From the NCBI GenBank assembly GCA_032718475.1, contig JAUCBJ010002231.1, forward strand, positions 1 to 40,517: a DNA stretch of 40,517 nucleotides. The letters run 5' to 3'. The DNA comes from Nemertoderma westbladi. Taxonomy: Eukaryota; Animalia; Xenacoelomorpha. The notes under the pieces were generated by a model. It had not been told where the DNA came from, made no database searches, and worked only from the letters and a program-made list of their open reading frames with translations. Of this stretch, positions 620 to 36,930 are shown piece after piece. The translations under genes were made by a program, and so were the position numbers. The first letter of the stretch is position 1. Each line of letters begins with the position of its first letter.

Positions 620-637
620 CACCCTTTACTCTCGGAG

Positions 638-2688: not shown

Positions 2689-2940
2689 TAATGATGCATT
2701 TCATAAAATATCTTCAGAACGACAAAGGGTTTAATTAGTTAATGTAAATTAAAAGGGTTATTTTGAATTGAATTGTATATGAATACTACTTAAGTGGTGT
2801 AAGTGTAACAGATGGTGGGACCATTTAGTTTGATTACCAGGTAAAAAATTTTTGGAAATGTGTTACATACCCATCAAGACTGAATTCACTGTAATAAACA
2901 GGGTGGTTGTGAATTTTCCCTCGTTACATAGGTTAGTTAG

Positions 2941-3115
2941 GTTCCACCTTGGTGTAGTGGTTGCATTGAATTCCAATCTATCTGGAGGTCGTGTGTTCGA
3001 TCCCTGTATGTGGGCCAAGGCAGTTTTCGATTCAGCACGAATGGTTTGAAGGGGCTAGCCAGGGGGCATCACTAAATGTTAGCTCTAGCGGTCGAAGAAA
3101 ACTTTATTTCTATAC
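2941..3115 (+). mobile_element. Probable tRNA-derived SINE inside the hAT element
   Basis: Pol III A-box-like TGGTGTAGTGG (2950-2960) and B-box GTTCGATCC (2995-3003) at tRNA-like spacing, no convincing cloverleaf, followed by ~100 bp body and a T-rich tail (GAAGAAAACTTTATTTCTATACTTT). Boundaries approximate. Confidence 0.5.
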
Positions 3116-3348
3116 TTTTTTACAAGTGTTGAAAAGTATCTTAAACTAATTGGTAATATTGTTTAAAAAATGTATAAATGTTGATAATAATTTAACAAAC
3201 TAATTGCAGCTATTAAACTAGATATGAACCTTGTAATTCCGGTAAAATTCCGGCCGGAATTGACCACATTCCGGCAATTCCGGCCGGAACCGGAATCGGG
3301 CAAAAACCGCCGGAATTCCGGCCGGAACGGAATTCCGGGACATCCCTA

Positions 3349-3471
3349 CTGCTAACTAACTAACTGTGATTTACAGCTAATTAACTAACTGATTTACTGC
3401 TAACTAACTAACTGATTTACTGCTAACTAACTAACTGTGATTTACTGATAACTAACTAACTGTGATTTACT
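3349..3471. repeat. 25-bp minisatellite, segment 2 (between hAT and retrotransposon)
   Basis: Same unit as 1025-1780. Confidence 0.95.
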
Positions 3472-3645
3472 TTAGGTATTGCACCACGTAGTTGGTGTAA
3501 ATTTATTTACTAGCTAATAAATAGAACAAATTCACATAGTTGAAAATTATTACAAGAACAAAAATTATTTATAGAGTTACACCAAAAAAAAAAAAAAAAT
3601 CATTAACATCAGTTTCTTCGCGGTCTTGTCTGCACTCGTTGTGGT

Positions 3646-7851: not shown

Positions 7852-8027
7852 CAAAACGCCGGCTGCAGTGACGCGTTCACTCGAATAGAGAGGCGACACA
7901 ATCAGAAATATATAATTTGGCGCCACAAAGTCTGACAGTTGTCAAGGCAGTAGTCAGTACAGCAGTACAGTTCAGGTAGTGTTCAGGAGGCAGTGCAGTG
8001 CAGTACGTACTCACACTCACAGTACGT

Positions 8028-9362
8028 ACTGTGATTTACTGCTAACTAACTAACTGTGAATTACTGCTAACTAACTAACTGTGATTTACTGCTAACTAAC
8101 TAACTGTGAATTACTGCTAACTAACTAACTGTGATTTACTGCTAACTAACTAACTGTGGTTTACTGCTAACTAACTAACTGTGATTTACTGCTAACTAAT
8201 TAACTGTGGTTTACTGCTAACTAACTAACTGTGGTTTACTGCTAACTAACTAACTAACTAACTGTGGTTTACTGCTAACTAACTAACTAACTAACTGTGA
8301 TTTACTGCTAACTAACTAACTGATTTACTGCTAACTAACTAACTAACTAACTGTGGTTTACTGCTAACTAACTAACTAACTAACTGTGATTTACTGCTAA
8401 CTAACTAACTGATTTACTGCTAACTAACTAACTGTGGTTTACTACTAACTAACTAACTGTGGTTTACTGCTAACTAACTAACTGTGATTTACTGCTAACT
8501 AACTAACTGTGATTTACTGCTAACTAACTAACTGTGATTTACTGATAACTAACTAACTGTGATTTACTGCTAACTAACTAACTGTGAATTACTGCTAACT
8601 AACTAACTGTGATTTACTGCTAACTAATTAACTGTGGTTTACTGCTAACTAACTAACTGTGGTTTACTGCTAACTAACTAGCTGTGATTTACTGCTAACT
8701 AACTAACTGTGATTTACTGCTAACTAACTAACTGTGATTTACAGCTAACTAATTAACTGTGGTTTACTGCTAACTAACTAACTGTGGTTTACTGCTAACT
8801 AACTAACTGTGGTTTACTGCTAACTAACTAACTGTGATTTACTGCTAACTAACTAACTGTGATTTACAGCTAACTAATTAACTGTGGTTTACTGCTAACT
8901 AACTAACTGTGGTTTACTGCTAACTAACTAACTGTGGTTTACTGCTAACTAACTAACTGTGATTTACTGCTAACTAACTAACTGTGATTTACTGCTAACT
9001 AACTAACTGTGATTTACAGCTAACTAATTAACTGTGGTTTACTGCTAACTAACTAACTGTGGTTTACTGCTAACTAACTAACTGTGGTTTACTGCTAACT
9101 AACTAACTGTGATTTACTGCTAACTAACTAACTGTGATTTACTGCTAACTAACTAACTGTGATTTACTGCTAACTAACTAACTGTGGTTTACTGCTAACT
9201 AACTAACTGTGGTTTACTGCTAACTAACTAACTGTGATTTACTGCTAACTAATTAACTGTGGTTTACTGCTAACTAACTAACTGTGGTTTACTGCTAACT
9301 AACTAACTGTGGTTTACTGCTAACTAACTAACTGTGATTTACTGCTAACTAACTAATTAACT
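8028..9362. repeat. 25-bp minisatellite, segment 3
   Basis: Same unit with TGTGGTTT / TGTGAATT variants. Confidence 0.97.
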
Positions 9363-9870
9363 ACACCCATTGATTTCAAATGGAACAGTAATGACTCCCA
9401 AAATCACATGCGACTGTCGACCTTTCGTTAAGGAGTTTGAATTTCGCGCTAAACCATATCCTATTGGTTAATATTTATTATGTCAATAATCAATAACCAA
9501 TTGGTTATAATCGATAATTAAGACATGTTCTAAGGTCTAAAAATTACGCAGTTTTCTGCAGTGATAATTAGAAAATAGTTAAGAATTATAGATATATTTA
9601 GTTATTTAAATATATTTATTCTATTAACTAATAATTTTATTAAATTAGTGGAATATTTAAATAGCTGTATCTCAAAAACTAAAAGTCGTACAGTGATGCA
9701 GATTTCACCATTAAAATCACCGTAAAATTATGTATTAGATAAAATTAAAAATAAAAAACGTCCAAATTTTACCCTTCTCGGTGACCCCCCCCCCCCCCCC
9801 CCCCCCCCCCTTTAATGTTAGTCCCGGTGTATCGATATTAGTAAGTTACTAAGTTTAGTGAGCCACTTAC

Positions 9871-10009
9871 CTTCACCTTCCTCTTCTTCCTCTTCTTCGT
9901 CGAACTGATAGAATCCGAGAGGAGAAATCTGAGTTCCAGCTGATATTCTCGCTATCTGAGCCCTAAGATAGTTAGTCTCGTTTCCAGGGAAGGGAGGGTA
10001 ACTGACAAC
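9871..10009 (-). CDS. RSPH4A: Radial spoke head protein 4/6 family, coding exon 6
   Basis: tttacag|GTTGTC...GGTGAAG|gtaagt; [46 protein letters not shown] matches the RSPH4A/6A conserved block [24 protein letters not shown]. Confidence 0.93.
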
Positions 10010-13000
10010 CTGTAAACAAAAAGGAAGGATAACTGACAACCTGTAAACAAAAGGGAAGGATAACTGACAACCTTTAAACAAAAGAGGAATATAACTGACA
10101 ACCTGTAAATAAAAGAGGAAGATAACTGACAACCTGTAAACAAAAGAGGAAGATAACTGACAACCTGTAAACAAAAGGGAAGGATTACTGACAACCTTTA
10201 AACAAAAGAGGAATATAACTGACAACCTGTAAATAAAAGAGGGAGATAACTGACAACCTGTAAACAAAAGAGGAAGATAACTGACAACCTGTAAACAAAA
10301 GGGAAGGATTACTGACAACCTTTAAACAAAAGATAAATATAACTGACAACCTGTAAATAAAAGAGGAAGATAACTGACAACCTGTAAACAAAAGAGGAAG
10401 ATAACTGACAACCTGTAAACAAAAGAGGAAGATAACTGACAACCTTTAAACAAAAGAGGAATATAACTGACAACCTGTAAACAAAAGGGAAGGATTACTG
10501 ACAACCTTTAAACAAAAGAGGAATATAACTGACCACCTGTAAATAAAAGAGGAAGATAACTGACAACCTGTAAACAAAAGAGGAAGATAACTGACAACCT
10601 GTAAACAAAAAGGAAGGATAACTGACAACCTTTAAACAAAAGAGGAATATAACTGACAACCTGTAAACTAAAGAGGAAGATAACTGACAACCTGTAAACA
10701 AAAGGAAAGGATAACTGACAACCTGTAAACAAAAGAGGAAGATAACTGACAACCTGTAAACAAAAGAGGAAGATAACTGACAACCTGTAAACAAAAGAGG
10801 AAGATAACTGACAACCTGTAAACCAAAGGGAAGGATAACTGACAACCTGTTAACAAAAGGGAAGGATAACTGACAACCTGTAAACAAAAGGGGAAGGATA
10901 ACTGATAACCTGTAAACAGAATGGAAGGATAACTGACAACTAACCTGTAAACAAAAGTGAAGGGTAACTGACAGCCTGTAAACAAGGGAAGGGTAACTGA
11001 CAAACTGTAAACAGAAGGGAAGGATAACTGACAACCTGTAAACCAAAGGGAAGGGTAAGTGATAACTTGTAAACAAAAAGGAAGGGTAACTGATAACTTG
11101 TACACAAAAGGGAAGGGTAACTAACAATCTGTAAACAAAAGGGAAGGGTAACTGACAAACTGTAAACAGAAGGGAAGGATAACTGACAACCTGTAAACCA
11201 AAGGGAAGGGTAAGTGATAACTTGTAAACAAAAAGGAAGGGTAACTGATAACTTGTACACAAAAGGGAAGGGTAACTGACAACCTGTAAACAGAAAGGAA
11301 GGGTAACTAACAACCTGTAAACAAAAGGGAAGGGTAACTGACAAACTGTAAACAGAAGGGAAGGATAACTGACAACCTGTAAACAGAAGGGAAGGGTAAC
11401 TAACAACCTGTAAACAAAAGGGAAGGGTAACTGACAACCTGTAAACAGAAAGGAAGGATAACTGACAACCTGTAAACCAAAGGGAAGGGTAAGTGATAAC
11501 TTGTAAACAAAAAGGAAGGGTAACTGATAACTTGTACACAAAAGGGAAGGGTAACTGACAACCTGTAAACAAAAATGAAGGGTAACTGATAACTTGTACA
11601 CAAAAGGGAAGGGTAACTGACAACCTGTAAACAGAAGGGAAGGGTAACTAACAACCTGTAAACAAAAAGGAAGGGTAACTGACAAACTGTAAACAGAAGG
11701 GAAGGATAACTGATAACCTGTAAACAAAAGGGGAGGGTAAGTGATAACTTGTAAACCAAAAGGGAAGGGTAACTGACAACCTGTAAACAAAAGGGAAGGT
11801 AACCGACAAACTGTAAACAGAAGGGAAGGATAACTGATAACCTGTAAACAAAAGGGGAGGGTAACTGATAACTTGTACACAAAAGGGAAGGGTAACTGAC
11901 AACCTGTAAACAAAAGGGAAGGTAACCGACAAACTGTAAACAGAAGGGAAGGATAACTGACAACTAACCTGTAAACAAAAGTGAAGGGTAACTGACAGCC
12001 TGTAAACAAGGGAAGGGTAACTGACAAACTGTAAACAGAAGGGAAGGATAACTGACAACCTGTAAACCAAAGGGAAGGGTAAGTGATAACTTGTAAACAA
12101 AAAGGAAGGGTAACTGATAACTTGTACACAAAAGGGAAGGGTAACTAACAATCTGTAAACAAAAGGGAAGGGTAACTGACAAACTGTAAACAGAAGGGAA
12201 GGATAACTGACAACCTGTAAACAAAAGGGAAGGGTAACTGATAACTTGTAAACAAAAAGGAAGGGTAACTGATAACTTGTACACAAAAGGGAAGGGTAAC
12301 TGACAACCTGTAAACAAAAATGAAGGGTATCTGATAACTTGTACACAAAAGGGAAGGGTAACTGACAACCTGTAAACAAAAATGAAGGGTATCTGATAAC
12401 TTGTACACAAAAGGGAAGGGTAACTGACAACCTGTAAACAGAAGGGAAGGGTAACTAACAACCTGTAAACAAAAGGGAAGGGTAACTGACAAACTGTAAA
12501 CAGAAGGGAAAGATAACTGACAACCTGTAAACAGAAGGGAAGGGTAACTAACAACCTGTAAACAAAAGGGAAGGGTAACTGACAACCTGTAAACAGAAAG
12601 GAAGGATAACTGACAAACTGTAAACAAAAGGGAGGGATAACTGACAACCTGTAAACAGAAAGGAAGGGTAACTAACAACCTGTAAACAAAAGGGAAGGGT
12701 GACTGACAACCTGTAAACAGAAGGGAAGGGTAACTAACAACCTGTAAACAAAAGGGAAGGGTAACTGACAACCTGTAAACAAAAGGGAGGGATAACTGAC
12801 AAACTGTAAACAAAAGGGGAGGATAACTGAAAGCTTGTAAACAAAAAGGAAGGGTAACTGATAACTTGTAAACAAAAAGGAAGGGTAACTGATAACTTGT
12901 AAACAAAAAGGAAGGGTAACTGATAACTTGTACACAAAAGGGGAGGGTAAGTGATAACTTGTAAACAAAAAGGAAGGGTAACTGATAACTTGTACACAAA

Positions 13001-15912
13001 AGGGGAGGGTAAGTGATAACTTGTAAACCAAAAGGAAGGGTAACTGATAACTTGTAAACAAAAAGGAAGGGTAACTGATAACTTGTACACAAAAGGGGAG
13101 GGTAAGTGATAACTTGTAAACAAAAAGGAAGGGTAACTGATAACTTGTAAACCAAAAGGAAGGGTAACTGATAACTTGTAAACCAAAAGGAAGGGTAACT
13201 GATAACTTGTAAACAAAAAGGAAGGGTAACTGATAACTTGTACACAAAAGGGGAGGGTAAGTGATAACTTGTAAACAAAAAGGAAGGGTAACTGATAACT
13301 TGTACACAAAAGGGGAGGGTAAGTGATAACTTGTAAACCAAAAGGAAGGGTAACTGATAACTTGTAAACAAAAAGGAAGGGTAACTGATAACTTGTACAC
13401 AAAAGGGGAGGGTAAGTGATAACTTGTAAACAAAAAGGAAGGGTAACTGATAACTTGTACACAAAAGGGGAGGGTAAGTGATAACTTGTAAACCAAAAGG
13501 AAGGGTAACTGATAACTTGTAAACAAAAAGGAAGGGTAACTGACAACCTGTAAACAGAAGGGAAGGATAACTGACAACCTGTAAACCAAAGGGAAGGGTA
13601 ACTGATAACTTGTAAACAAAAAGGAAGGGTAACTGATAACTTGTAAACAAAAAGGAAGGGTAACTGATAACTTGTACACAAAAGGGGAGGGTAAGTGATA
13701 ACTTGTAAACCAAAAGGAAGGGTAACTGATAACTTGTAAACAAAAAGGAAGGGTAACTGATAACCTGTAAACAGAAGGGAAGGGTAACTGATAACTTGTA
13801 CACAAAAGGGAAGGGTAACTGATAACTTGTACACAAAAGGGAAGGGTAACTGATAACTTGTAAACAAAAAGGAAGGGTAACTGATAACTTGTAAACAAAA
13901 AGGAAGGGTAACTGATAACTTGTACACAAAAGGGAAGGGTAACTGATAACTTGTAAACAAAAAGGAAGGGTAACTGATAACTTGTAAACAAAAAGGAAGG
14001 GTAACTGATAACTTGTACACAAAAGGGGAGGGTAAGTGATAACTTGTAAACCAAAAGGAAGGGTAACTGATAACTTGTAAACAAAAAGGAAGGGTAACTG
14101 ATAACTTGTACACAAAAGGGGAGGGTAAGTGATAACTTGTAAACAAAAAGGAAGGGTAACTGATAACTTGTACACAAAAGGGGAGGGTAAGTGATAACTT
14201 GTAAACCAAAAGAAAGGGTAACTGATAACTTGTAAACAAAAAGGAAGGGTAACTGACAACCTGTAAACAGAAGGGAAGGATAACTGACAACCTGTAAACC
14301 AAAGGGAAGGGTAACTGATAACTTGTAAACAAAAAGGAAGGGTAACTGATAACTTGTAAACAAAAAGGAAGGGTAACTGATAACTTGTACACAAAAGGGG
14401 AGGGTAAGTGATAACTTGTAAACCAAAAGGAAGGGTAACTGATAACTTGTAAACAAAAAGGAAGGGTAACTGATAACCTGTAAACAGAAGGGAAGGGTAA
14501 CTGATAACTTGTACACAAAAGGGAAGGGTAACTGACAACCTGTAAACAGAAGGGAAGGGTAACTAACAACCTGTAAACAAAAGGGAAGGGTAACTGATAA
14601 CTTGTACACAAAAGGGAAGGGTAACTGATACCTTGTACACAAAAGGGAAGGGTGACTGACAACCTGTAAACAGAAAGGAAGGGTAACTAACAACCTGTAA
14701 ACAAAAGGGAAGGGTGACTGACAACCTGTAAACAGAAGGGAAGGATAACTAACAACCTGTACACAAAAGGGAAGGGTAACTGACAACCTGTAAACAGAAG
14801 GGAAGGGTAACTAACAACCTGTAAACAAAAGGGAAGGGTAACTGATAACTTCTACACAAAAGGGAAGGGTAACTGATACCTTGTACACAAAAGGGAAGGG
14901 TGACTGACAACCTGTAAACAGAAAGGAAGGGTAACTAACAACCTGTAAACAAAAGGGAAGGGTGACTGACAACCTGTAAACAGAAGGGAAGGATAACTAA
15001 CAATCTGTAAACAAAAGGGAAGGATAACTGACAACCTGCAAACAAGGGAAGGGTAACTGATAACTTGTACACAAAAGGGAAGGGTAACTGATAACTTGTA
15101 CACAAAAGGGAGGGAAAACTGACAACCTGTAAACAAAAGGCGAGGGTAACTAATAACTTGTAAACAAGGGAAGGGTAACTGATAACTTGTACACAAAAGG
15201 GAAGGGTAACTGATAACTTGTACACAAAAGGGAAGGGTGTCTGACAACCTGTAAACAGAAAGGAAGGGTAACTAACAACCTGTAAACAAAAGGGAAGGGT
15301 AACTGACAACGTGTAAACAAAAGGGAAGGATAACTGACAACCTGTAAACAAAAGGGAATGATAACTGACAACCTGTAAACAAAAAGGGAGGGAAAACTGA
15401 CAACCTGTAAACAAAAGGCGAGGGTAACTAATAACTTGTAAACAAAAGGGAAGGGTAATTGACAAACTGTAAACAGAAGGGAAGGATAACTGACAACCTG
15501 TAAACAAAAGGGAAGGGTAACTGATAACTTGTAAACAAAAAGGAAGGGTAACTGATAACTTGTAAACAAAAGGGAAGAATAACTGACAACCTGTAAAAGG
15601 AATGGAAGGATAACTGATAATCTGTAAACAAAAGGGAAGGGTAACTGACAACCTGTAAACAGAAGGGAAGGATAACTGACAACCTGTAAACAAAAGGGAA
15701 GGGTAACTGACAATCTGTAAACAAAAGGGAAGGATAACTGACAAACTGTAAACAAAAGGGAGGGATAACTGACAACCTGTAAACAAAAGGGAGGGATAAC
15801 TGGCAACCTGTACACAAAAAGGAAGGGTAACTGACAACCTGTAAACAAAAGGGAGGGATACTTGACAACCTGTAAACAAAAAGGAAGGGTAACTGATAAC
15901 TTGTAAACAAAG
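9989..15912 (-). repeat. 31-bp minisatellite (~190 units) made of the intron 5 / exon 6 acceptor junction
   Basis: Sense unit TTTTGTTTACAG|GTTGTCAGTTA(C/T)CCTTCCC; the terminal unit is the real acceptor plus the first ~20 nt of exon 6. Confidence 0.96.
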
Positions 15913-15990: not shown

Positions 15991-16248
15991 CAAAGCGTCA
16001 AGTCGTCCCGTAAAGTATTTCTTTATTAGCCTGGCGCTTGCAATCTGTTCTGGTGTAACTGGCGGCAGTTTAACCCATTCTTTGCCGGGTTCGTTACAAA
16101 CAAAGTAACTCTTCCTATTGGCCCCGGAACCCTTTTCTTCCTTGAGGATCACAGGGGGAGGTTTGTAAGTCGACTTGGGGAGCTCATCTTCTTCGCCTTC
16201 GTCGTCGGCGTCTTCGGGGTTCTCGTCTTCTTCTTTATCTTCATCTCC
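15991..16248 (-). CDS. RSPH4A: Radial spoke head protein 4/6 family, coding exon 5
   Basis: ttttcag|GGA...GCTTTG|gttagt, 258 nt, phase 0/0; [86 protein letters not shown]. Confidence 0.93.
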
Positions 16249-16644: not shown

Positions 16645-19600
16645 ACAGCTCCACCTTACAGATACAGCTCCCAACTCCACCTTACAGATACAGCTCCCAG
16701 CTCTACCTTACAGATACAGCTCCCAGCTCCTCCTTACAGATACAGCTCCCAGCTCCACCTTACAGATACAGCCCCCAGCTCCAACTTACAGATACAGCCC
16801 CCAGCTCCACCTTACAGATACAGCTTCCAGCTCCACCTTACAGATACAGCTCCCAACTCCACCTTACAGATACAGCTTCCAGCTCCACCTTACAGATACA
16901 GCTCCCAGCTCCAACTTACAGATACAGCTCCCAGCTCCAACTTACAGATACAGCCCCCAGCTCCACCTTACAGATACAGCTTCCAGCTCCACCTTACAGA
17001 TACAGCTCCCAACTCCACCTTACAGATACAGCTCCCAGCTCCAACTTACAGATACAGCTCCCAGCTCCACCTTACAGATACAGCTCCCAGCTCCACCTTA
17101 CAGATACAGCTCCCAGCTCCACCTTACAGATACAGCCCCCAGCTCCACCTTACAGATACAGCTCCCAGCTCCTCCTTACAGATACAGGTCCCAGCTCCTC
17201 CTTACAGATACAGCTCCCAGCACCTCCTTACAGATACAGCTCCCAGCTCCACCTTACAGATACAGCTTCTAGCTCCACCTTACAGATACAGCTTCCAGCT
17301 CTATCTTACAGATACACAGCTCCACCTTACAGATACAGCTCCCAGCTCCACCTTACAGATACGCAGCTCCCAGCTCCACCTTACAGATACAGCTTCCAGC
17401 TCCACCTTACAGATACAGCTCCCAGCTCCACCTTACAGATACAGCCCCCAGCTCCACCTTACAGATACAGCTCCCAGCTCCACCTTACAGATACACAGCT
17501 CCCAGCTCCACCTTACAGATACAGCTTCCAGCTCCACCTTACAGATACAGCTCCCAGCTCCACCTTACAGATACAGCTCCCAGCTCCACCTTACAGATAC
17601 AGCTTCCAGCTCCACCTTACAGATACAGCTCCCAACTCCACCTTACAGATACAGCTCCCAGCTCCACTTTACAGATACAGCTCCCAGCTCCACCTTACAG
17701 ATACAGCTCCCAGCTCCTCCTTACAGATACAGCTCCCAGCTCCTCCTTACAGATACAGCTCCCAGCTCCACCTTACAGATACAGCTTCCAGCTCCACCTT
17801 ACAGATACAGCTCCCAACTCCACCTTACAGATACGGCTCCCAGCTCCACTTTACAGATACAGCTCCCAGCTCCACCTTACAGATACAGCTCCCAGCTCCT
17901 CCTTACAGATACAGCTTCCAGCTCCACCTTACAGATACAGCTCCCAGCTCCACCTTACAGATACAGCTCCCAGCTCCACCTTACAGATACACAGCTCCCA
18001 GCTCCTCCTTACAGATACAGCTCCCAGCTCCACCTTACAGATACAGCTTCCAGCTCCACCTTACAGATACAGCTCCCAACTCCACCTTACATTACAGCTC
18101 CCAGCTCCACTTTACTGATACAGCTCCCAGCCCCACCTTACAGATACAGCTCCCAACTCCACCTTACAGATACAGCTCCCAGCTCCTTCTTACAGATACA
18201 GCTTCCAGCTCCACCTTACAGATACAGCTTCCAGCTCCACCTTACAGATACAGCTCCCAACTCCACCTTACATTACAGCTCCCAGCTCCACTTTACTGAT
18301 ACAGCTCCCAGCCCCACCTTACAGATACAGCTCCCAACTCCACCTTACAGATACAGCTCCCAGCTCCTTCTTACAGATACAGCTCCCAGCTCCACCTTAC
18401 AGATACAGCTTCCAGCTCCACCTTACAGATACAGCTCCCAACTCCACCTTACATTACAGCTCCCAGCTCCACTTTACTGATACAGCTCCCAGCCCCACCT
18501 TACATATACAGCTCCCAACTCCACCTTACAGATACAGCTCCCAGCTCCTTCTTACAGATACAGCTCCCAGCTCCACCTTACAGATACACAGCTCCCAGCT
18601 CCACATTACAGATACAGCTCCCAGCTCCACCTTACAGATACAGCTTCCAGCTCCACCTTACAGATACAGCTCCCAACTCCACCTTACATTACAGCTCCCA
18701 GCTCCACTTTACTGATACAGCTCCCAGCCCCACCTTACAGATACAGCTCCCAACTCCACCTTACAGATACAGCTCCCAGCTCCTTCTTACAGATACAGCT
18801 TCCAGCTCCACCTTGCAGATACAGCTTCCAGCTCCACCTTACAGATACAGCTCCCAGCTCCACCTTACAGATACACAGCTCCCAGCTCCACCTTACAGAT
18901 ACAGCTTCCAGCTCCACCTTACAGATACAGCTCCCAGCTTCACCTTACAGATACAGCTCCCAGCTCCACCTTACTGATACAGCTCCCAGCTCCACCTCAC
19001 AGATACAGCTTCCAGCTCCACATTACAGATACAGCTCCCAACTCCACCTTACAGATACAGCTCCCAGCTCCACATTACAGATACAGCTCCCAACTCCACC
19101 TTACAGATACAGCTTCCAGCTCCACCTTACAGATACAGCTCCCACCTCCACCTTACAGATACAGCTCCCAGCTCCACCTTACAGATACAGCTCCCAACTC
19201 CACCTTACAGATACAGCTCCCCGCTCCTCCTTACAGATACAGCTTCCAGCTCCACCTTACAGATACAGCTCCCAGCTCCACCTTACAGATACAGCTCCCA
19301 ACTCCACCTTACAGATACAGCTCCCAACTCCACCTTACAGATACACAGCTCCCAGCTCCACCTCACAGATACAGCTCCCAGCTCCACCTTACAGATACAG
19401 CTCCCAACTCCACCTTACAGATACAGCTCCCAGCTCCCAGCTCCACCTTACAGATACAGCTCCCATGCTCCACCTTACAGATACAGCTTCCAGCTCCACC
19501 TTACAGATACAGCTCCCAGCTCCACCGTACAGATACACAGCTCCCAGCTCCACCTTACAGATACAGCTCCCAGCTCCCAGCTCCACCTTACAGATACAGC

Positions 19601-20355
19601 TCCACCTTACAGATACAGCTCCCAGCACCACCTTACAGATACAGCTCGCAGCTCCAACTTACAGATACAGCCCCCAGCTCCACCTTACAGATACAGCTCC
19701 CAGCTCCTCCTAACAGATACAGCTCCCAGCTCCTCCTTACAGATACAGCTCCCAGCTCTACCTTACAGATACAGCTTCCAGCTCCACCTTACAGATACAG
19801 CTTCCAGCTCCACCTTACAGATACAGCTCCCAGCTCCACCTTACAGATACACAGCTCCCAGCTCCACCTTACAGATACAGCTTCCAGCTCCACCTTACAG
19901 ATACAGCTCCCAGCTCCACCTTACAGATACAGCTCCCAGCTCCTCCTTACAGATACAGCCCCCAGCTCTTCCTTACAGATACACAGCTCCCATCTCCTCC
20001 TTACAGATACAGCTCCCAGCTCCACCTTACAGATACTGCTTCCAACTCCACCTTACAGATACAGCTCCCAGCTCCACCTTACAGATACAGCTCCCAGCTC
20101 CTCCTTACAGATACAGCCCCCAGCTCTTCCTTACAGATACAGCTTCCAGCTCCACCTTACAGATGCAGCTCCCAGCTCCACCTTACAGATACAGCTCCCA
20201 GCTCCTCCTTACAGATACAGCCCCCAGCTCTTCCTTACAGATATAGCTCCCAGCTCCTCCTTACAGATACAGCTCCCAGCTCCACCTTACAGATACAGCT
20301 CCCAGCTCCTCCTTACAGATACAGCTCCCAGCTCCACCTTACAGATACAGCTCCC
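16645..20355. repeat. 26-bp minisatellite (CCTTACAGATACAGCTCCCAGCTCCA)n, ~140 units, filling RSPH intron 4
   Basis: Directly visible; begins ~23 nt inside the exon 4 donor and does not overlap the exon. Confidence 0.97.
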
Positions 20356-20378: not shown

Positions 20379-20526
20379 TTGTTCCTCGTCATCCTCCTCT
20401 TCTTCCCCCTCCCTGTATTCCACTTCCGCTATGACGTAATTTTTCTCCAATCCCAATATTTTGCCCCAGAATCGCACTGTCTGTAGGGGATGAGTGTCCG
20501 CTAAAGTCTTTAATGCAAAATAAATC
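20379..20526 (-). CDS. RSPH4A: Radial spoke head protein 4/6 family, coding exon 4
   Basis: ttttcag|G...GAACAA|gtgagt, 148 nt; (R)[49 protein letters not shown], with the family motif [13 protein letters not shown]. Not in the ORF track. Confidence 0.93.
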
Positions 20527-21244: not shown

Positions 21245-24200
21245 TCCCGTATAGTTTAACTTTATCTCCCTACCTGTAGGTTTCCTCCCATATAGAATAA
21301 CTTTTTATCCCTACCTATACGTTTCCTCCCATATCGTATAACTTTATATCCCTATCTGTAGGTTACCTCCCGTATAGTTTAACTTTATGTCCCTACCTGT
21401 AGATTACCTCACGTATGCCGTATAATTTAACTTTATATTCCTACCTATACGTTTCATCCCGTATAGTATAACTTTATATCCCTACCTATAGGTTACCTCC
21501 CGTATAATTTATCTTTATGTCCCTACCTGTAGGTTACCTCCCTATAGTTTAACTTCATGTCCCTACCTATAATAGGTTACCTCCCGTATAATTTAACTTT
21601 ATATCCCTACCTATACGTTTCCTCCCATGTCGTATAACTTTATATATCCCTATCTGTAGGTTACCTCCCGTATAGTTTAACTTTATATCCCTCCCTACCC
21701 ACTGTATACGTTTCCTCCCATATATTATATCTTTATATCCATATCTGTAGGTTACATCCCGTATAGTTTAACTTTATGTCCCTACCTTTAGGTTTCCTCC
21801 GATATAGCATAACTTTATATTCCTACCTATACGTTTCCTCCCGAACAGTTTAACTTTATGTCCCTACCTGTAGGCCACCTCCCATATAATTTAACTTTAT
21901 ATTCCTACCTATACGTTTCCTCCCGTACAGTTTAACTTTATGTCCCTACCTGTAGGCCACCTCCCGTATAATTTAACTTTATATTCCTACCTATACGTTT
22001 CCTCCCGTACAGTTTAACGTTATGTCCCTACCTGTAGGCCACCTCCCGTATAATTTAACTTTATATTCCTACCTATACGTTTCCTCCCGTACAGTTTAAC
22101 TTTATGTCCCTACCTGTAGGCCACCTCCCATATAATTTAACTTTATATTCCTACCTATACGTTTCCTCCCGTACAGTTTAACTTTATGTCCCTACCTGTA
22201 GGCCACCTCCCGTATAATTTAACTTTATATTCCTACCTATACGTTTCCTCCCGTACAGTTTAACTTTATGTCCCTACCTGTAGGCCACCTCCCATATAAT
22301 TTAACTTTATATTCCTACCTATACGTTTCCTCCCGTACAGTTTAACTTTATGTCCCTACCTGTAGGCCACCTCCCATATAATTTAACTTTATATTCCTAC
22401 CTATACGTTTCCTCCCGTACAGTTTAACGTTATGTCCCTACCTGTAGGCCACCTCCAGTATAATTTAACTTTATATTCCTACCTATACGTTTCCTCCCGT
22501 ACAGTTTAACTTTATGTCCCTACCTATAATAGGTTACCTCCCGTATAATTTAACTTTATATTCCTACCTATACGTTTCCTCCCATATCGTATAACTTTAA
22601 ATATCCCTATCTGTAGGTTACCTCCCGTACAGTTTAACTTTATGTCCCTACCTGTAGGCCACCTCCAGTATAATTTAACTTTATATTCCTACCTATACGT
22701 TTCCTCCCGTACAGTTTAACTTTATGTCCCTACCTGTAGGCCACCTCCAGTATAATTTAACTTTATATTCCTACCTATACGTTTCCTCCCGTACAGTTTA
22801 ACTTTATGTCCCTACCTGTAGGCCACCTCCCGTATAATTTAACTTTATATTCCTACCTATACGTTTCCTCCCGTACAGTTTAACTTTATGTCCCTACCTG
22901 TAGGCCACCTCCCATATAATTTAACTTTATATTCCTACCTATACGTTTCCTCCCGTACAGTTTAACGTTATGTCCCTACCTGTAGGCCACCTCCCGTATA
23001 ATTTAACTTTATATTCCTACCTATACGTTTCCTCCCGTACAGTTTAACTTTATGTCCCTACCTATAATAGGTTACCTCCCGTATAATTTAACTTTATATT
23101 CCTACCTATACGTTTCCTCCCATATCGTATAACTTTAAATATCCCTATCTGTAGGTTACCTCCCGTACAGTTTAACTTTATGTCCCTACCTGTAGGCCAC
23201 CTCCAGTATAATTTAACTTTATATTCCTACCTATACGTTTCCTCCCGTACAGTTTAACTTTATGTCCCTACCTGTAGGCCACCTCCCATATAATTTAACT
23301 TTATATTCCTACCTATACGTTTCCTCCCGTACAGTTTAACTTTATGTCCCTACCTGTAGGCCACCTCCAGTATAATTTAACTTTATATTCCTACCTATAC
23401 GTTTCCTCCCGTACAGTTTAACTTTATGTCCCTACCTGTAGGCCACCTCCCATATAATTTAACTTTATATTCCTACCTATACGTTTCCTCCCGTACAGTT
23501 TAACTTTATGTCCCTACCTGTAGGCCACCTCCAGTATAATTTAACTTTATATTCCTACCTATACGTTTCCTCCCGTACAGTTTAACTTTATGTCCCTACC
23601 TATAATAGGTTACCTCCCGTATAATTTAACTTTATATTCCTACCTATACGTTTCCTCCCATATCGTATAACTTTAAATATCCCTATCTGTAGGTTACCTC
23701 CCGTACAGTTTAACTTTATGTCCCTACCTGTAGGCCACCTCCCATATAATTTAACTTTATATTCCTACCTATACGTTTCCTCCCGTACAGTTTAACTTTA
23801 TGTCCCTACCTGTAGGCCACCTCCCGTATAATTTAACTTTATATTCCTACCTATACGTTTCCTCCCGTACAGTTTAACTTTATGTCCCTACCTGTAGGCC
23901 ACCTCCAGTATAATTTAACTTTATATTCCTACCTATACGTTTCCTCCCGTACAGTTTAACTTTATGTCCCTACCTGTAGGCCACCTCCCGTATAATTTAA
24001 CTTTATATTCCTACCTATACGTTTCCTCCCGTACAGTTTAACTTTATGTCCCTACCTGTAGGCCACCTCCCATATAATTTAACTTTATATTCCTACCTAT
24101 ACGTTTCCTCCCGTACAGTTTAACTTTATGTCCCTACCTGTAGGCCACCTCCCATATAATTTAACTTTATATTCCTACCTATACGTTTCCTCCCGTACAG

Positions 24201-26981
24201 TTTAACTTTATGTCCCTACCTGTAGGCCACCTCCCGTATAATTTAACTTTATATTCCTACCTATACGTTTCCTCCCGTACAGTTTAACTTTATGTCCCTA
24301 CCTGTAGGCCACCTCCCGTATAATTTAACTTTATATTCCTACCTATACGTTTCCTCCCGTACAGTTTAACTTTATGTCCCTACCTGTAGGCCACCTCCCG
24401 TATAATTTAACTTTATATTCCTACCTATACGTTTCCTCCCGTACAGTTTAACTTTATGTCCCTACCTGTAGGCCACCTCCCATATAATTTAACTTTATAT
24501 TCCTACCTATACGTTACCTCCCGTACAGTTTAACGTTATGTCCCTACCTGTAGGCCACCTCCCGTATAATTTAACTTTATATTCCTACCTATACGTTTCC
24601 TCCCGTACAGTTTAACTTTATGTCCCTACCTGTAGGCCACCTCCCGTATAATTTAACTTTATATTCCTACCTATACGTTTCCTCCCGTACAGTTTAACTT
24701 TATGTCCCTACCTGTAGGCCACCTCCCATATAATTTAACTTTATATTCCTACCTATACGTTTCCTCCCGTACAGTTTAACTTTATGTCCCTACCTGTAGG
24801 CCACCTCCCATATAGTTTAACTTTATATTCCTACCTATACGTTACCTCCCGTACAGTTTAACGTTATGTCCCTACCTGTAGGCCACCTCCCATATAATTT
24901 AACTTTATATTCCTACCTATACGTTTCCTCCCGTACAGTTTAACGTTATGTCCCTACCTGTAGGCCACCTCCCGTATAATTTAACTTTATATTCCTACCT
25001 ATACGTTTCCTCCCGTACAGTTTAACTTTATGTCCCTACCTGTAGGCCACCTCCCGTATAATTTAACTTTATATTCCTACCTATACATTTCCTCCCATAC
25101 CGTATAACTTTAAATATCCCTATCTGTAGGTTACCTCCCGTACAGTTTAACTTTATGTCCCTACCTGTAGGCCACCTCCCATATAGTTTAACTTTATATT
25201 CCTACCTATACGTTTCCTCCCGTACAGTTTAACTTTATGTCCCTACCTGTAGGCCACCTCCCGTATAATTTAACTTTATATTCCTACCTATACGTTTCCT
25301 CCCGTACAGTTTAACTTTATGTCCCTACCTGTAGGCCACCTCCCATATAGTTTAACTTTATATTCCTACCTATACGTTTCCTCCCGTACAGTTTAACTTT
25401 ATGTCCCTACCTGTAGGCCACCTCCCATATAGTTTAACTTTATATTCCTACCTATACGTTTCCTCCCGTACAGTTTAACTTTATGTCCCTACCTGTAGGC
25501 CACCTCCCGTATAATTTAACTTTATATTCCTACCTATACGTTTCCTCCCGTACAGTTTAACTTTATGTCCCTACCTGTAGGCCACCTCCCGTATAATTTA
25601 ACTTTATGTCCCTACCTGTAGGCCACCTCCCATATAGTTTAACTTTATGTCCCTATCTATAGGCTTCCTCCCGTATAGTTTAACTTTATGTCCCTACCTG
25701 TAGGCCACCTCCCGTATAATTTAACTTTATATTCCTACCTATACGTTTCCTCCCGTACAGTTTAACTTTATGTCCCTACCTGTAGGCCACCTCCCGTATA
25801 ATTTAACTTTATATTCCTACCTATACGTTTCCTCCCGTACAGTTTAACTTTATGTCCCTACCTGTAGGCCACCTCCAGTATAATTTAACTTTATATTCCT
25901 ACCTATACGTTTCCTCCCGTACAGTTTAACTTTATGTCCCTACCTGTAGGCCACCTCCCGTATAATTTAACTTTATATTCCTACCTATACGTTTCCTCCC
26001 GTACAGTTTAACTTTATGTCCCTACCTGTAGGCCACCTCCCATATAATTTAACTTTATATTCCTACCTATACGTTACCTCCCGTACAGTTTAACGTTATG
26101 TCCCTACCTGTAGGCCACCTCCCGTATAATTTAACTTTATATTCCTACCTATACGTTTCCTCCCGTACAGTTTAACTTTATGTCCCTACCTGTAGGCCAC
26201 CTCCCGTATAATTTAACTTTATGTCCCTACCTGTAGGCCACCTCCCATATAGTTTAACTTTATGTCCCTATCTATAGGCTTCCTCCCGTATAGTTTAACT
26301 TTATGTCCCTACCTGTAGGCCACCTCCCATATAATTTAACTTTATATTCCTACCTATACGTTTCCTCCCGTACAGTTTAACTTTATGTCCCTACCTGTAG
26401 GCCACCTCCCATATAGTTTAACTTTATATTCCTACCTATACGTTTCCTCCCGTACAGTTTAACTTTATGTCCCTACCTGTAGGCCACCTCCCGTATAATT
26501 TAACTTTATATTCCTACCTATACGTTTCCTCCCGTACAGTTTAACTTTATGTCCCTACCTGTAGGCCACCTCCCATATAATTTAACTTTATATTCCTACC
26601 TATACGTTTCCTCCCGTACAGTTTAACTTTATGTCCCTACCTGTAGGCCACCTCCCGTATAATTTAACTTTATATTCCTACCTATACGTTTCCTCCCGTA
26701 CAATTTAACTTTATGTCCCTACCTGTAGGCCACCTCCCGTATAATTTAACTTTATATTCCTACCTATACGTTTCCTCCCGTACAGTTTAACTTTATGTCC
26801 CTACCTGTAGGCACCTCCTGTATAATTTAACTTTATGTCCCTACCTGTAGGCCACCTCCCATATAGTTTAACTTTATGTCCCTATCTATAGGCTTCCTCC
26901 CATATAGTTTAACTTTATGTCCCTATCTATAGGCTTCCTCCCGTATAGTTTAACTTTATGTCCCTACCTGTAGGTTTCCTC
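21245..26981 (-). repeat. 41-bp minisatellite (~140 monomers, mostly as an 82-bp dimer) made of the exon 3 / intron 3 donor junction
   Basis: Terminal unit 26941-26981 = last 14 nt of exon 3 (GAGGAAACCTACAG) + first 27 nt of intron (gtagggacataaagttaaactatacgg); array alternates ...GTGGCCTACAG|GTAGGGAC... and ...AAACGTATAG|GTAGGAAT... monomers. Confidence 0.96.
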
Positions 26982-27131
26982 AGTACTAATCGACATCCCA
27001 GCGGACTGGAAATGCGACCCCAGTTCGATAATATTGGGCACCGGTGATTGGGCGTCATCATCATCCATAGCAACGTCCATTTCCTCGTCAGTCGCTTTGA
27101 ATAGAGTTGTTTCGAGCTCAGCGTTGGCGAT
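26968..27131 (-). CDS. RSPH4A: Radial spoke head protein 4/6 family, coding exon 3
   Basis: tttataaag|ATC...ACCTACAG|gtaggg, 164 nt; IANAELETTLFKATDEEMDVAMDDDDAQSPVPNIIELGSHFQSAGMSISTEETY(R); phases join exons 2 and 4. Confidence 0.88.
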
Positions 27132-27339
27132 CTTTATAAACAAATAAATTAAACCAATAAATTATTTTATAGCTCTCACGGGATGCAAATGTGATTTATA
27201 TATTTTTTATTATAAGTAATTACTTACTATTCTATTCAAATTCAATAAATAAATAATTCAACCTTTTTTTAAATAAATTAATAATTATATACGATTTTTC
27301 GACTTGTTAATAAATTATTGTTATAAAATAACAACTTAC

Positions 27340-27493
27340 CTCATTGGGTTTCTCTGGTCTATCGTAGATATAGTCTTCACTGGCCTTCGCCCTCTCCTTT
27401 TTAACATTCTTACTAAGTTCCTCGAAGTAGTCGACTATATTTCCCGGCCTTTTACTTAGTATGTTAGACAATAACTCTGCGAGGTGGTCGTAT
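27340..27493 (-). CDS. RSPH4A: Radial spoke head protein 4/6 family, coding exon 2
   Basis: atttaag|A...AATGAG|gtaagt, 154 nt; (L)YDHLAELLSNILSKRPGNIVDYFEELSKNVKKERAKASEDYIYDRPEKPNE, matching LYDHL...IL..RP.N.VD.FE..S..VK. Confidence 0.92.
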
Positions 27494-27953
27494 CTTAAAT
27501 AGTAAATAGATGCGTATTCACTAAGTTTGTTGGCTATTAACTATTAATTTATTACAAATTGTCTACATGGCGAAAGCACATTCATATCATAAGGAATTTA
27601 AGGCAGTTGTTGGGGCACGTCACGCAAACGCTATGTATCTTTTTCATAGCAACAATGCCACTTTAATGTTTGTTGAGAAGAAAACGTACCTACAACTCTT
27701 TGAGGTGGTCTTACCTAAAATATCAGAAACGTATTTATTTATCACTTATATTTGCTATTTAAATACATAGCGATTTCTCTATTTCAAGAAACACCGGTTT
27801 AGATTCACCCCTTGGAGTCGTTTAAAGTGACCGGGTTTAAAGGTCACACCTTGGTGTAGTGATTAAATCCGTTGCAAACTTTGTGCGTTATCAATCCCTG
27901 GCGTAATGGCTGAAGAAAACTCTACTTTACTTAAAGAGGTGTACAAAACTTAC

Positions 27954-28129
27954 AGGTTTAGGCCGGATTGCGTGCTCGATTGTAGCATAAACGCTTTGGC
28001 GTCCTGGTACTTCTGTTCGCTGACATTAACCAGTCCATTGGTCGCATTGTCCCCCACTGCTGGAACAACAGGCGAACCGGCATCGGCTGCAGCCTCAGGC
28101 ACAACGTCTGGTTCCGCGGTCCCATTCAT
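27954..28129 (-). CDS. RSPH4A: Radial spoke head protein 4/6 family, coding exon 1
   Basis: ATG at 28129; MNGTAEPDVV...KYQDAKAFMLQSSTQSGLN(L), donor CT|gtaagt; matches AKAYLL..S..SG.NLYDHL across the junction. Confidence 0.88.
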
Positions 28130-28345
28130 TCTGATTTAATTCAAACACTTTTACTTTAATCAATATAGTTTTACAGGTATTACTTTACTGGAATTTCCTA
28201 GTTCACTATATTTTGTCACAAAATGATCACTTTTTATCAAATTATTAATTAAAGCAAGAAAGCTGTTATTACAAGATTATAAATTTGAAAGCAGGGCACA
28301 AATATCAGCTGCACCGGTATGCACTGGTTGCAGATAGTTTACAGT

Positions 28346-29115: not shown

Positions 29116-29865
29116 ATAAATTTGTCAAACGGGAAAACTGACGTTAGAAATGAATTCACCGATCAGAAAAACCCCATAGCAATAATTTTTGTACGCGCTC
29201 TTTATTCTCTGCGCTTTTGATCGGTCAATGCGAATTAGTCTACACGGTTTCATTCTTTTAGTACGATTGTGTGTACGTATTGATAGCGCGGCGATCGGCC
29301 AAATAAGATCGGTCCGATTACGTAATTCGGGCAGTATGTATAGATAGTAAATAGTTACGTTATCGTTCATATGCGCAACTCTGGCATCTTAAAAAATGAA
29401 AGGGAAATGAGCAGGTTACAGTCAGTGGCGGTGTTTTCCAACCGAAACAATAAACGAAACTAGATTCCTTAATCAACGGAAAGGGGTAGGTTTCAGTGGC
29501 GGGCTTTTCTAATCAAAACAATAACGATAACTCAATATCAATACGGTAATATAGGTTACAGTCTTATAATAGCCGTACTGTCATATGCTTAGTGCAGTTA
29601 GTCTTAGTAGTGATACTATTCCTATGTTATGTTTATTTGTTTATGTCAGTATGTGGCTATGTGCTGATGTGTAAGGATTACAGGATTATATACGATAAAG
29701 GAATATTCTTTTTTTCTTTAATCTGTCTCCTCTACCAGTTTTCATTATTTTCGACTCCTGGGTATATAATTTTCCCGACATACCACTGTACCAGTCCAGT
29801 ATTCAGGATTGACTGACTAATGTTAGATCGTACTGTCCGACTGTCCCAATTACTGGCAATTGGCA

Positions 29866-32145
29866 ATGTCTTGTAGATTATTTTATTGCCGAGGTCTTAC
29901 TCGATGGACCATTCCTACTTCCATCCCATCCATATATAATAAGTCAACCTCACAACATTGGGGACTTCCAAGGCGGATTGTAAGGGCTGCTACGCACACC
30001 GCCAGCCACGCAACCGACACCTCCGTAGTCCCAAACCAACGGATCCGAAACATAGGAATATCCGCTCACATAGACCACGGTAAGACGACGCTAACAGAGC
30101 GAATCCTTTACTACGCGGGTCGTATAGAGCAGATACACGAGGTTCGGGGTCGGGATGGGGTGGGGGCGACCATGGATTCAATGGAGCTGGAGCGCCAACG
30201 AGGGATTACAATCAGATCGGCGGCGACTTACATCGATTGGAACGGTTACCAGGTAAATATAATCGATACTCCCGGTCACGTCGACTTCACCATCGAAGTA
30301 GAACGTGCGTTGCGGGTTCTAGATGGTGCTGTTCTGGTGCTATGCGGTGTCGGTGGCGTCCAATCGCAGACTCTAACAGTGAACCGACAGCTGACTCGGT
30401 ACGAGGTCCCCTGTATCGCGTTCATAAACAAGTTGGACAGGATGTGGGGCGATGCGGATCGCGTGCTGCAGCAGTTGCGAACTCGGTTGAATCACAACGC
30501 GGCCATGGTGACCCTCCCCGTCGGGAGAGAGGCTGAGTTCATCGGCGTCGTCGACCTAATCAAACAGCGGATGGTCCAGTTCGAGGGTCGCCATGGCGAG
30601 CGGTTGGTTTACTCCGCGGTCCCGGAAGCGTTGAGGGATCGAACTCGGGCCGCGCGACGCGAACTGATCGAGCGAGTTGCAGACGTCGACGAGGAGATAG
30701 GCGATCTGTTCCTCGCGGACTCCGAACCGACAGAGTCGCAGCTGTATGCCGCTATCCGACGCGCTGTGATCCGTCGGACTTTCACCCCGGTGTTTGTCGG
30801 TTCTGCGCTCAAGAATAAAGGCGTGCAGACGCTGTTGGACGGCGTGGTTAACTTTCTCCCGGACCCGTCCGAACGAGATCACTCCGCGATGTCCGTCCGG
30901 GACGGAGTCGCCGATTCCGACTCTCGGACTCCCCTCGACCCGTCCCGCGACGCCGACAACCCCTTCGTCGCGCTGGCCTTCAAGTTGGACGCATCGAGCC
31001 ACGGACAGCTCAGTTACATCCGGGTCTACCAGGGGGCGTTGCGACGCGGCGAATCCGTGACTAACAGTCGGACCCGGAGTCGGACTCGGATCCAGCGGTT
31101 GGTCCGTCTGCACGCGGACCAGCTGACCGACACTGAGTGGGCCCGGGCCGGGGACATAGTCGCGATACACGGGGTGGACTGCGCCGCGAGCGGGGACACG
31201 CTGACCCGAGGCGGTAGCGAGGAGGTAACCATGGAGGGCATGTTCGTGCCGGAGCCGGTTGTGTCGCTCAGCGTTACCCCTAACAACAGGGCCGCCTCCG
31301 AGAAGTTCAGCCGCGGATTGGCCCGCTTCCAACGCGAGGACCCCACGCTGCGGGTCGCCTACGACCGCGAGTACAAGGAGACCGTCATGTCCGGGATGGG
31401 GGAACTCCATCTGGAGGTGTACGCGCAGCGGTTGGAGCGGGAGTTCGGGTGCGCGGTTACTCTGGGGCAACCGCGGGTCGCCTTCAGGGAGACCCTAACC
31501 GAACGGGTAGCCTTCGACTTCCTACACAAGAAGCAGTCGGGAGGCCGGGGGCAGTACGGGAGGGTGAAGGGCTACGTGGAACCCATGGAGAACTCGACCT
31601 ACAACGAATTCCTCGACTCCACGTCGGGGCTCAACATCCCCAAGAACTTCATCCCGCACATCCGGTCCGGGTTCCTGTCCGGCTGTGAGTCCGGCCCGCT
31701 GATCGGACACAAACTGTCCGGGATCCGGATGGTCCTGCAGGACGGGGCCTCCCATCCCGTCGACTCCAACGACATCGCCTTCACGCTCGCGGGGTTGGGG
31801 GCCCTCCGGCAGGTTATCGATCTCGCCATGGACGCGACCGCTGTGAGCGTCGTGGAGCCGGTTATGCGGGTCGAGGTTTCCGCTCCCACAGAGTTCCAGG
31901 ACGCCGCCGTCCATCTGATCTCGCTACGATCCGGATCCATAGACTCGGTTTATCCCGCACAGGAACTGTTCTCCATCGAGGCGACGGTTCCTCTCAACGA
32001 TATGTTTGGGTTCTCCGCCTCGCTTAGGAGTTGCACCCAAGGGAAGGGCGAGTTCACCATGGAATACAGTCACTACTCACCCTGTAGAACCTCAGTACTG
32101 GAAACTTTATTAGAGAAATTCCGCTCTCCGCGGGGGAGAAAGTAG
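29866..32145 (+). CDS. GFM1: Mitochondrial elongation factor G1, single exon (759 aa)
   Basis: Arg/Ser/Thr-rich presequence, then RNIGISAHIDHGKTTLTERILYY, MDSMELERQRGITI, NIIDTPGHVDFTIEVERALRVLDGA, NKLD, GSALKNKGVQ, HKKQSGGRGQYG, LRSCTQGKGEFTMEY; first ATG at 29866; AATAAA at 32177. Confidence 0.96.
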   Translation: MSCRLFYCRGLTRWTIPTSIPSIYNKSTSQHWGLPRRIVRAATHTASHATDTSVVPNQRIRNIGISAHIDHGKTTLTERILYYAGRIEQIHEVRGRDGVGATMDSMELERQRGITIRSAATYIDWNGYQVNIIDTPGHVDFTIEVERALRVLDGAVLVLCGVGGVQSQTLTVNRQLTRYEVPCIAFINKLDRMWGDADRVLQQLRTRLNHNAAMVTLPVGREAEFIGVVDLIKQRMVQFEGRHGERLVYSAVPEALRDRTRAARRELIERVADVDEEIGDLFLADSEPTESQLYAAIRRAVIRRTFTPVFVGSALKNKGVQTLLDGVVNFLPDPSERDHSAMSVRDGVADSDSRTPLDPSRDADNPFVALAFKLDASSHGQLSYIRVYQGALRRGESVTNSRTRSRTRIQRLVRLHADQLTDTEWARAGDIVAIHGVDCAASGDTLTRGGSEEVTMEGMFVPEPVVSLSVTPNNRAASEKFSRGLARFQREDPTLRVAYDREYKETVMSGMGELHLEVYAQRLEREFGCAVTLGQPRVAFRETLTERVAFDFLHKKQSGGRGQYGRVKGYVEPMENSTYNEFLDSTSGLNIPKNFIPHIRSGFLSGCESGPLIGHKLSGIRMVLQDGASHPVDSNDIAFTLAGLGALRQVIDLAMDATAVSVVEPVMRVEVSAPTEFQDAAVHLISLRSGSIDSVYPAQELFSIEATVPLNDMFGFSASLRSCTQGKGEFTMEYSHYSPCRTSVLETLLEKFRSPRGRK

Positions 32146-34922: not shown

Positions 34923-36828
<1,906 letters not shown>

Positions 36829-36829
<1 letters not shown>

Positions 36830-36930
36830 TGCATTTCATTGCATTGCCTTGCATTGCATTGCATTACAGTGCATTGCAGTGCATTGCAGTGCGTTGCGTT
36901 GCGTTGCATTGCATTGCATTGCATTGCATG
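36829..36930. repeat. (TGCAT/TGCAG/TGCGT)n pentanucleotide microsatellite
   Basis: Directly abuts the tetranucleotide array. Confidence 0.9.

What the first reader, a model, noticed from the sequence alone, without database searches (positions are those of the whole stretch)
21245..26981. Intron 3 satellite is a ~140-fold tandem amplification of the gene's own 5' splice site
Seen: the 41-bp unit equals the last 14 nt of RSPH exon 3 plus the first 27 nt of the intron, so most units carry AG|GTAGGG or AG|GTAGGA in the sense direction. The array is anchored exactly on the functional donor and decays at the far end (21245-21850). Reading past the true donor gives TAC AGG TAG, an immediate stop, so use of any decoy donor would give a truncated, NMD-type transcript. 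Inference: a process that seeds minisatellites at splice junctions, plus a spliceosome that must pick one donor from more than 100 near-identical ones.
Basis: partly seen in the sequence, partly recalled or inferred. Interest (0 to 1): 0.88.

Follow-up and report, generated by a model that had tools for sequence, protein, structure and literature searches.

The report
Splice-site "mirage" minisatellites in ciliary gene
In a radial-spoke (cilium) gene, one exon's end with its splice donor is copied 138 more times into the next intron and another exon's start with its splice acceptor 190 more times, a large but otherwise familiar case of a repeat type already described in human and lancelet genes, which likely leaves normal splicing mostly intact.

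Summary
A 41-bp minisatellite (139 units) begins 14 nt inside exon 3 of an RSPH4/6 gene and spans its donor. Homology fixes that donor. Of 138 downstream copies, 126 keep GT and each would stop translation at once. Both intron positions occur in other organisms, so the arrays did not create the introns. This is a known kind: human F7 intron 7, CBS and ABCA7 (up to ~427 units), and amphioxus "mirages" on both donor and acceptor sides. In F7 the first donor wins by position. This scan has noted the kind in at least five other genomes. Junction-biased seeding is not shown: two of three arrays spanning a junction has p about 0.06-0.10 under uniform placement. RNA-structure silencing of decoys was tested and not supported. 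No genome or RNA run was available, so splicing outcome is inferred. The acceptor array is the more unusual half. New member of a known kind; interest 0.3.

The parts
21245..26981 (-). Array A: 41-bp minisatellite, 139 units, unit = last 14 nt of exon 3 + first 27 nt of intron 3; interior organised as 82-bp dimer
26962..26970 (-). True intron 3 donor CAG|GTAGGG (exon 3 ends at 26968, phase 2, Arg codon split)
   Evidence: Pfam colinearity 130/132; best-scoring junction and same position/phase in L050, L061, L062-L064; not confirmed by RNA
26880..26929 (-). The two decoys nearest the true donor (junctions at 26926 and 26885) lack GT (AG|AT)
   Evidence: significance weak
21247..21287 (-). Last full unit, 40/41 identical to the first (ancestral-like end)
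9990..15911 (-). Array B: 31-bp minisatellite, 191 units, unit = about 11 nt of intron 5 end + about 20 nt of exon 6 start; 112 of 190 upstream copies keep AG; 33 contiguous AG copies abut the true acceptor
16646..20355 (-). Array C: 26-bp minisatellite, 142 units, wholly intronic, starting about 24 nt after the exon 4 donor; does not span a junction
27954..28129 (-). RSPH4/6 exon 1 (coding part; start codon inferred)
27340..27493 (-). RSPH4/6 exon 2
   Evidence: PF04712 17-66, E 4.7e-10
26968..27131 (-). RSPH4/6 exon 3 (164 nt)
   Evidence: PF04712 87-130, E 0.002; tblastn
20379..20526 (-). RSPH4/6 exon 4
   Evidence: PF04712 132-179, E 1.2e-17
15991..16248 (-). RSPH4/6 exon 5
   Evidence: PF04712 191-272, E 1.1e-31
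9871..10009 (-). RSPH4/6 exon 6 (139 nt); acceptor is the last unit of array B; donor AAG|GTAAGT matches consensus 9/9
   Evidence: PF04712 274-318, E 7.7e-25

Best explanation
Array A is a minisatellite whose 41-bp unit spans the exon 3 donor of an RSPH4/6 gene, and it likely arose as one local tandem duplication at an old intron that then expanded without function, tolerated because the spliceosome likely picks the copy adjoining the full exon. Shown: the unit's make-up, the 139 copies, the near-identity of first and last unit, the derived 82-bp dimer and block duplications inside, the older age of the intron position, and a mirror-image array at the exon 6 acceptor. Inferred: duplication by slippage or break repair, growth by unequal exchange, and site choice by position (first donor downstream of the exon; last acceptor upstream of the exon, through recognition of a 164-nt or 139-nt exon). 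Inferred: rare use of a near decoy gives a premature stop and decay of the transcript, so the cost is small. Junction-spanning arrays would be seen at exon edges simply because this orientation leaves the protein unchanged, in a genome region where minisatellites fill 15.4 of the 16.6 kb of introns 3-5.
For: Ends ancestral-like and interior homogenised (first vs last 40/41, interior median 36/41; exact internal repeats of 361, 345 and 299 bp), the pattern Ebner et al. report for mirage clusters. Intron 3 position and phase are shared with 5 of 5 loci tested for it (three of them, L062-L064, one near-identical sequence; L066 and L074 lack this intron) and intron 5 is the best junction in 4 of 5 loci, second best in L076. 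A third large array in the gene (C) does not span a junction, and others lie elsewhere in the window. Uniform placement gives p 0.057-0.099 for at least two spanning arrays. Decoys are not structurally masked: 111 of 126 are predicted at least as open as the true donor, so position must decide. Human F7 shows positional choice experimentally; lancelet mirages of both polarities do not disturb splicing.
Against: No RNA evidence for this gene, so use of the outer sites is inferred from homology and from other species. The p values (0.06-0.10) lean towards junction bias, and all three arrays begin within 24 nt of a junction. The two nearest donor decoys lack GT (p 0.007 if independent, 0.087 as one event), which hints at selection. 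The exons for profile positions 320-518 are not in the window, so the gene is not shown to be complete or expressed. The F7 scanning model covers donors only; the acceptor array needs the last of 113 AG sites, for which I read no experiment at this scale.
Confidence: 0.75

Rival explanations
1. Seeding is biased to exon-intron junctions in this lineage (for example by transcription- or splicing-coupled DNA damage and templated repair at exon edges); the arrays are still functionless.
For: Two of three multi-kb arrays in introns 3-5 span a junction and the third starts about 24 nt from one. Ebner et al. call the pattern possibly general in cephalochordates and its mechanism unclear.
Against: p 0.057-0.099 under uniform placement, before allowing for the window having been picked for this feature. 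With arrays collapsed, intron 5 is only about 90 nt, so a 31-bp seed there spans a junction about half the time (0.49). An unchecked scan note on another genome reports no excess over chance (e1-9992352).
Confidence: 0.15
2. The arrays are shaped by selection on splicing: near decoys are inactivated or masked, or copy number tunes RSPH4/6 output through unproductive splicing, as at human ABCA7.
For: The two nearest donor decoys lack GT, and leakage in human cases goes to the first one or two pseudo-sites. 78 of 190 acceptor copies have lost AG. ABCA7 exon skipping rises with array length.
Against: The acceptor array shows the opposite gradient: 33 contiguous AG copies next to the true site, AG loss in the middle. 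The two non-GT units are one duplicated variant that recurs inside the array. No structural masking; derived units fold no better than random mutants (fraction 0.31 RNA, 0.60 and 0.80 DNA).
Confidence: 0.07
3. The gene copy is a truncated or silent paralogue, so no splice-site choice is made, or the copy numbers are partly assembly artefacts.
For: No exon for profile positions 320-518 in the 9.9 kb left of exon 6.
Against: Six exons join in one open frame of 346 codons with canonical GT-AG ends and exon 6 is 76-95% identical to homologues; the missing exons may lie beyond the window edge. Ordered variant blocks and intact ends argue for real arrays.
Confidence: 0.03

Closest known systems
Human F7 intron 7 37-bp VNTR (Borensztajn et al. 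2006, PMC1557585; read parts 1, 2, 4, 5 of 6), with the IFI6/6-16, CBS intron 13, lamin B2 and PDGF cases it cites
   Same: First unit spans the exon-intron boundary, so the donor is reiterated in the intron; similar unit length.
   Different: 5-25 copies there, 139 here; 14 exonic nt here against 4 in F7; splicing measured there, only inferred here.
Amphioxus 'mirage' minisatellites: globins BflGb6/BflGb9 (Ebner et al. 2010, PMC3087553, passages), PGBD5 and troponin C (PMC3902484, passages), Adh3 (Canestro et al. 2002, not held, known only through these citing papers)
   Same: Tandem copies of intron-exon boundaries at both donor and acceptor sides; some units lose AG/GT; boundary units excluded from homogenisation; several per gene.
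   Different: 2-7 units in the globin and PGBD5 cases read, against 139 and 191 here; organism here is not identified; length polymorphism not tested here.
Human ABCA7 intron 18 25-bp VNTR (De Roeck et al. 2018, PMC5954066; passages and one results section)
   Same: Donor GT repeated in each unit; comparable or greater size (12 to about 427 units); one-unit retention gives a premature stop and NMD.
   Different: Unit starts at the GT with no exonic part; effect on exon skipping measured there.

Membership tests
Junction-spanning ('mirage') minisatellite | Head-to-tail array of 10-160 bp units | tested here: met
   41 bp x 139 and 31 bp x 191
Junction-spanning ('mirage') minisatellite | Unit contains both exon and intron sequence of an authentic splice junction, terminal unit is the real site | tested here: met
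   Periodicity reaches 14 nt into exon 3 and about 20 nt into exon 6; junctions fixed by homology
Junction-spanning ('mirage') minisatellite | Many but not all copies keep GT or AG | tested here: met
   126 of 138 donor copies, 112 of 190 acceptor copies
Junction-spanning ('mirage') minisatellite | Concerted evolution inside, boundary units excluded | tested here: met
   Array A: first vs last 40/41, interior median 36/41, 82-bp dimer
Junction-spanning ('mirage') minisatellite | Normal splicing at the authentic site | not testable with these tools
Junction-spanning ('mirage') minisatellite | Length polymorphism between alleles | not testable with these tools
   One haplotype only; no genome or reads held
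Intron gain by tandem duplication of an AG|GT proto-splice site | Intron position is new and the intron derives from exonic repeats | tested here: not met
   Same position and phase in other organisms for introns 3 and 5; both introns have unique sequence at the other end
Recursive (ratchet) splice sites | Pyrimidine tract + AG followed at once by a strong donor | tested here: not met
   Array A units are purine-rich before AG|GT; array B units have the tract but GTTGTC after it, a poor match to GTRAGT (sequence); use not testable
Dispersed satellite or transposon-borne repeat | Same unit at unrelated loci | tested here: inconclusive
   No copy elsewhere in the 40.5-kb window (best 23/41 and 18/31); genome not available

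The most novel reading that the evidence does not exclude
This lineage has a mutational process that seeds and hugely amplifies minisatellites at exon edges, and its spliceosome reliably picks the last of 113 self-contained acceptors (and the first of 127 donors) in one gene, making the locus an extreme natural reporter of exon definition, with the nearest donor decoys removed by selection.
Probability: 0.15. Interest if true: 0.65.

Novelty: new member of a known kind. Interest (0 to 1): 0.3.

Why it matters
As it stands it is a large, clean example of a known repeat type. Its use is as a test system: one gene carries a donor-side and an acceptor-side array of over 100 intact decoys each, so long-read RNA data from this animal would measure how strictly position alone sets splice-site choice. 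The acceptor side is the less studied: the acceptor-side or unspecified lancelet cases in the passages I read have 2-7 units, and the scan's notes list up to 27. If a genome-wide test showed junction bias, it would point to a link between splicing or transcription and repeat birth, which the papers read leave open.

Tried and rejected
No whole genome held, so no genome-wide enrichment or dispersal test. RNA run search with window 26968-28200: no RNA holder listed; this is no evidence either way. Organism not identified: the neighbouring mitochondrial EF-G has best hits of 54-58% identity, all named ones vertebrates, among the 7999 candidates scored; RSPH exon 5 hits are 66-81%. Hairpin silencing of decoys: positions -7..-1 can pair with +20..+26 and -3/+22 covary (T-A 64, C-G 53, other 11 of 128 units), but this reflects two unit lineages only; decoys are not more closed than the true site and derived units do not out-fold random mutants: rejected. 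Intron gain from the repeat: rejected. Recursive splicing: motifs do not fit. No Rfam match in the window. The array A motif is absent from 80 of 80 fetched homologous loci, and TRF found only short repeats in the 16 intron-bearing loci scanned; these are distant organisms and many of the 80 are intronless transcripts, so this says little. Canestro et al. 2002 could not be read. Searches for a published genome-wide enrichment test: (0 papers with all six terms); PMC10078293 passages did not address it. The library lacks most subscription papers, so absence from print is not shown. No supplementary files were read.

Full report
Gene context. The minus strand carries six coding exons of a radial spoke head protein 4/6 gene: 28129-27954, 27493-27340, 27131-26968, 20526-20379, 16248-15991 and 10009-9871. 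They join in one open frame with GT-AG ends. Exons 2-6 match Pfam PF04712 in order, at profile positions 17-66, 87-130, 132-179, 191-272 and 274-318, so exons 3/4 and 5/6 abut with no room for extra residues. tblastn with eight homologues agrees. The exons for the last 200 profile positions are not in the window. The organism is likely an animal without a close relative among listed hits.

The observation. TRF reports 21245-26981, period 82, 69.5 copies; an identity scan gives 139 in-register 41-bp units. Periodicity begins 14 nt inside exon 3. 127 of 139 units keep GT; 61 decoys have the same 9-mer as the true donor, and 126 of 126 GT decoys would put a stop right after the split Arg codon. 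The unit has no copy elsewhere in the window (best 23/41). The last unit is 40/41 identical to the first while the interior median is 36/41, so the ends keep the old sequence and the interior has been swept by an 82-bp dimer of two derived types, with exact block repeats up to 361 bp. And the two copies nearest the donor lack GT.

A second array. Intron 5 holds a 31-bp array (9990-15911) whose last unit is the exon 6 acceptor: about 11 intronic and 20 exonic nt, 191 units, 112 of 190 upstream copies with AG, 33 of them contiguous with the true site. 109 of the 112 would give a premature stop; three stay in frame. Intron 4 holds a 26-bp array that starts about 24 nt after the donor and spans no junction. 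Arrays fill 15,369 of the 16,552 bp of introns 3-5; collapsed, these introns are about 747, 446 and 90 nt.

Did the repeats make the introns? No. Of 80 homologous metagenome loci, 22 showed split matches; I tested the five with a break near codon 154 and the five with a break near codon 294 of the reference. All five of the first set have an intron at the position and phase of intron 3 (three are one near-identical sequence), and intron 5 is the best junction in four of five and second best in the fifth; L066 and L074 read through the intron 3 position.

Is seeding biased to junctions? Under uniform placement of a seed over collapsed introns 1-5, counting only intronic or junction-spanning seeds, at least two of three arrays span a junction with p 0.057; conditional on the intron, 0.099; with the 25-bp array of intron 6 as a further miss, 0.092. 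This leans towards bias but does not show it, and the window was chosen for the feature.

Are decoys silenced? Predicted opening energy of the true donor is 5.2 kcal/mol; 111 of 126 GT decoys are as open or more so. The derived dimer folds no better than 1500 random mutants with the same number of changes. Loss of GT in the two nearest copies has p 0.007 as independent events but 0.087 as one, and they are one variant that recurs inside the array; the acceptor array shows no proximal loss. So position is the likely determinant. The true exon-side context is also nearly unique: the exact exon end recurs only in the last unit. Exon 6 ends in a 9/9 consensus donor, which would favour recognition of the 139-nt exon and so the last acceptor; this step is inferred. 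I recall, without having read it here, that Reed and Maniatis (1986) found the outer site used when the duplicated exon piece is short.

What is known. Borensztajn et al. (PMC1557585; parts 1, 2, 4, 5 of 6 read) describe the F7 37-bp VNTR whose first unit spans the exon 7 donor, list 6-16, CBS, lamin B2 and PDGF as like cases, and show that the most upstream working copy is chosen; leakage in 6-16 and CBS goes to near copies. ABCA7 (PMC5954066; passages and one section) repeats its donor up to about 427 times, with about 2% one-unit retention and length-dependent exon skipping. Ebner et al. (PMC3087553; passages) describe amphioxus 'mirages' at both 5' and 3' boundaries, with concerted evolution, excluded boundary units and normal splicing; PMC3902484 (passages) adds PGBD5 and troponin C. 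I reached F7 and the Ebner paper through searches and recalled the word 'mirage' before seeing the scan's notes, which file the same kind in at least five other genomes (unchecked). I found no paper testing genome-wide enrichment, in a library that lacks most subscription journals.

Verdict. Real, correctly described, and a new member of a known kind. All sequence-level features of a mirage minisatellite are met; splicing outcome and polymorphism could not be tested. The donor array is not a size record. What stands out is the pair of very long arrays of opposite polarity in one gene, above all the 191-unit acceptor array. Interest 0.3; junction-biased seeding with extreme exon definition remains open at about 0.15 and would deserve 0.65.

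Noticed in passing
window 9990-15911 (-): 31-bp array spanning the exon 6 acceptor, 191 units; exon-derived pyrimidine-rich codons supply much of each unit's pyrimidine tract, so every unit looks like a complete acceptor. Three decoys (-93, -186, -279) stay in frame without a stop through exon 6.
   Followed up: yes
window 16646-20355 (-): 26-bp intronic array starting about 24 nt after the exon 4 donor; not junction-derived, yet it carries 128 GTAAG motifs (112 TCT|GTAAGG) in the sense direction, i.e. another field of donor-like sites.
   Followed up: partly
window 1025-1782, 3347-3471, 8028-9356: Three pieces of one 25-bp minisatellite, apparently a single array split by two insertions: an element at about 1783-3346 with inverted ends and a reverse-transcriptase element at about 3472-8027.
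   Followed up: partly
window 3646-6282 (-): 878-codon open frame with a weak RVT_1 match (E 8e-5), preceded by a 21-bp coding-like tandem repeat at 6574-7394; likely a non-LTR retroelement.
   Followed up: no
window 29827-32145 (+): Intronless, GC-rich (0.59-0.64) mitochondrial elongation factor G gene divergent from RSPH4/6; best hits only 54-58% identical.
   Followed up: partly
window 34925-36929: About 1.9 kb tetranucleotide microsatellite (two motif variants) joined to a pentanucleotide run.
   Followed up: no
window 1-9870: No exon for the C-terminal 200 residues of RSPH4/6; intron 6 is longer than 9.8 kb or the gene is truncated.
   Followed up: partly
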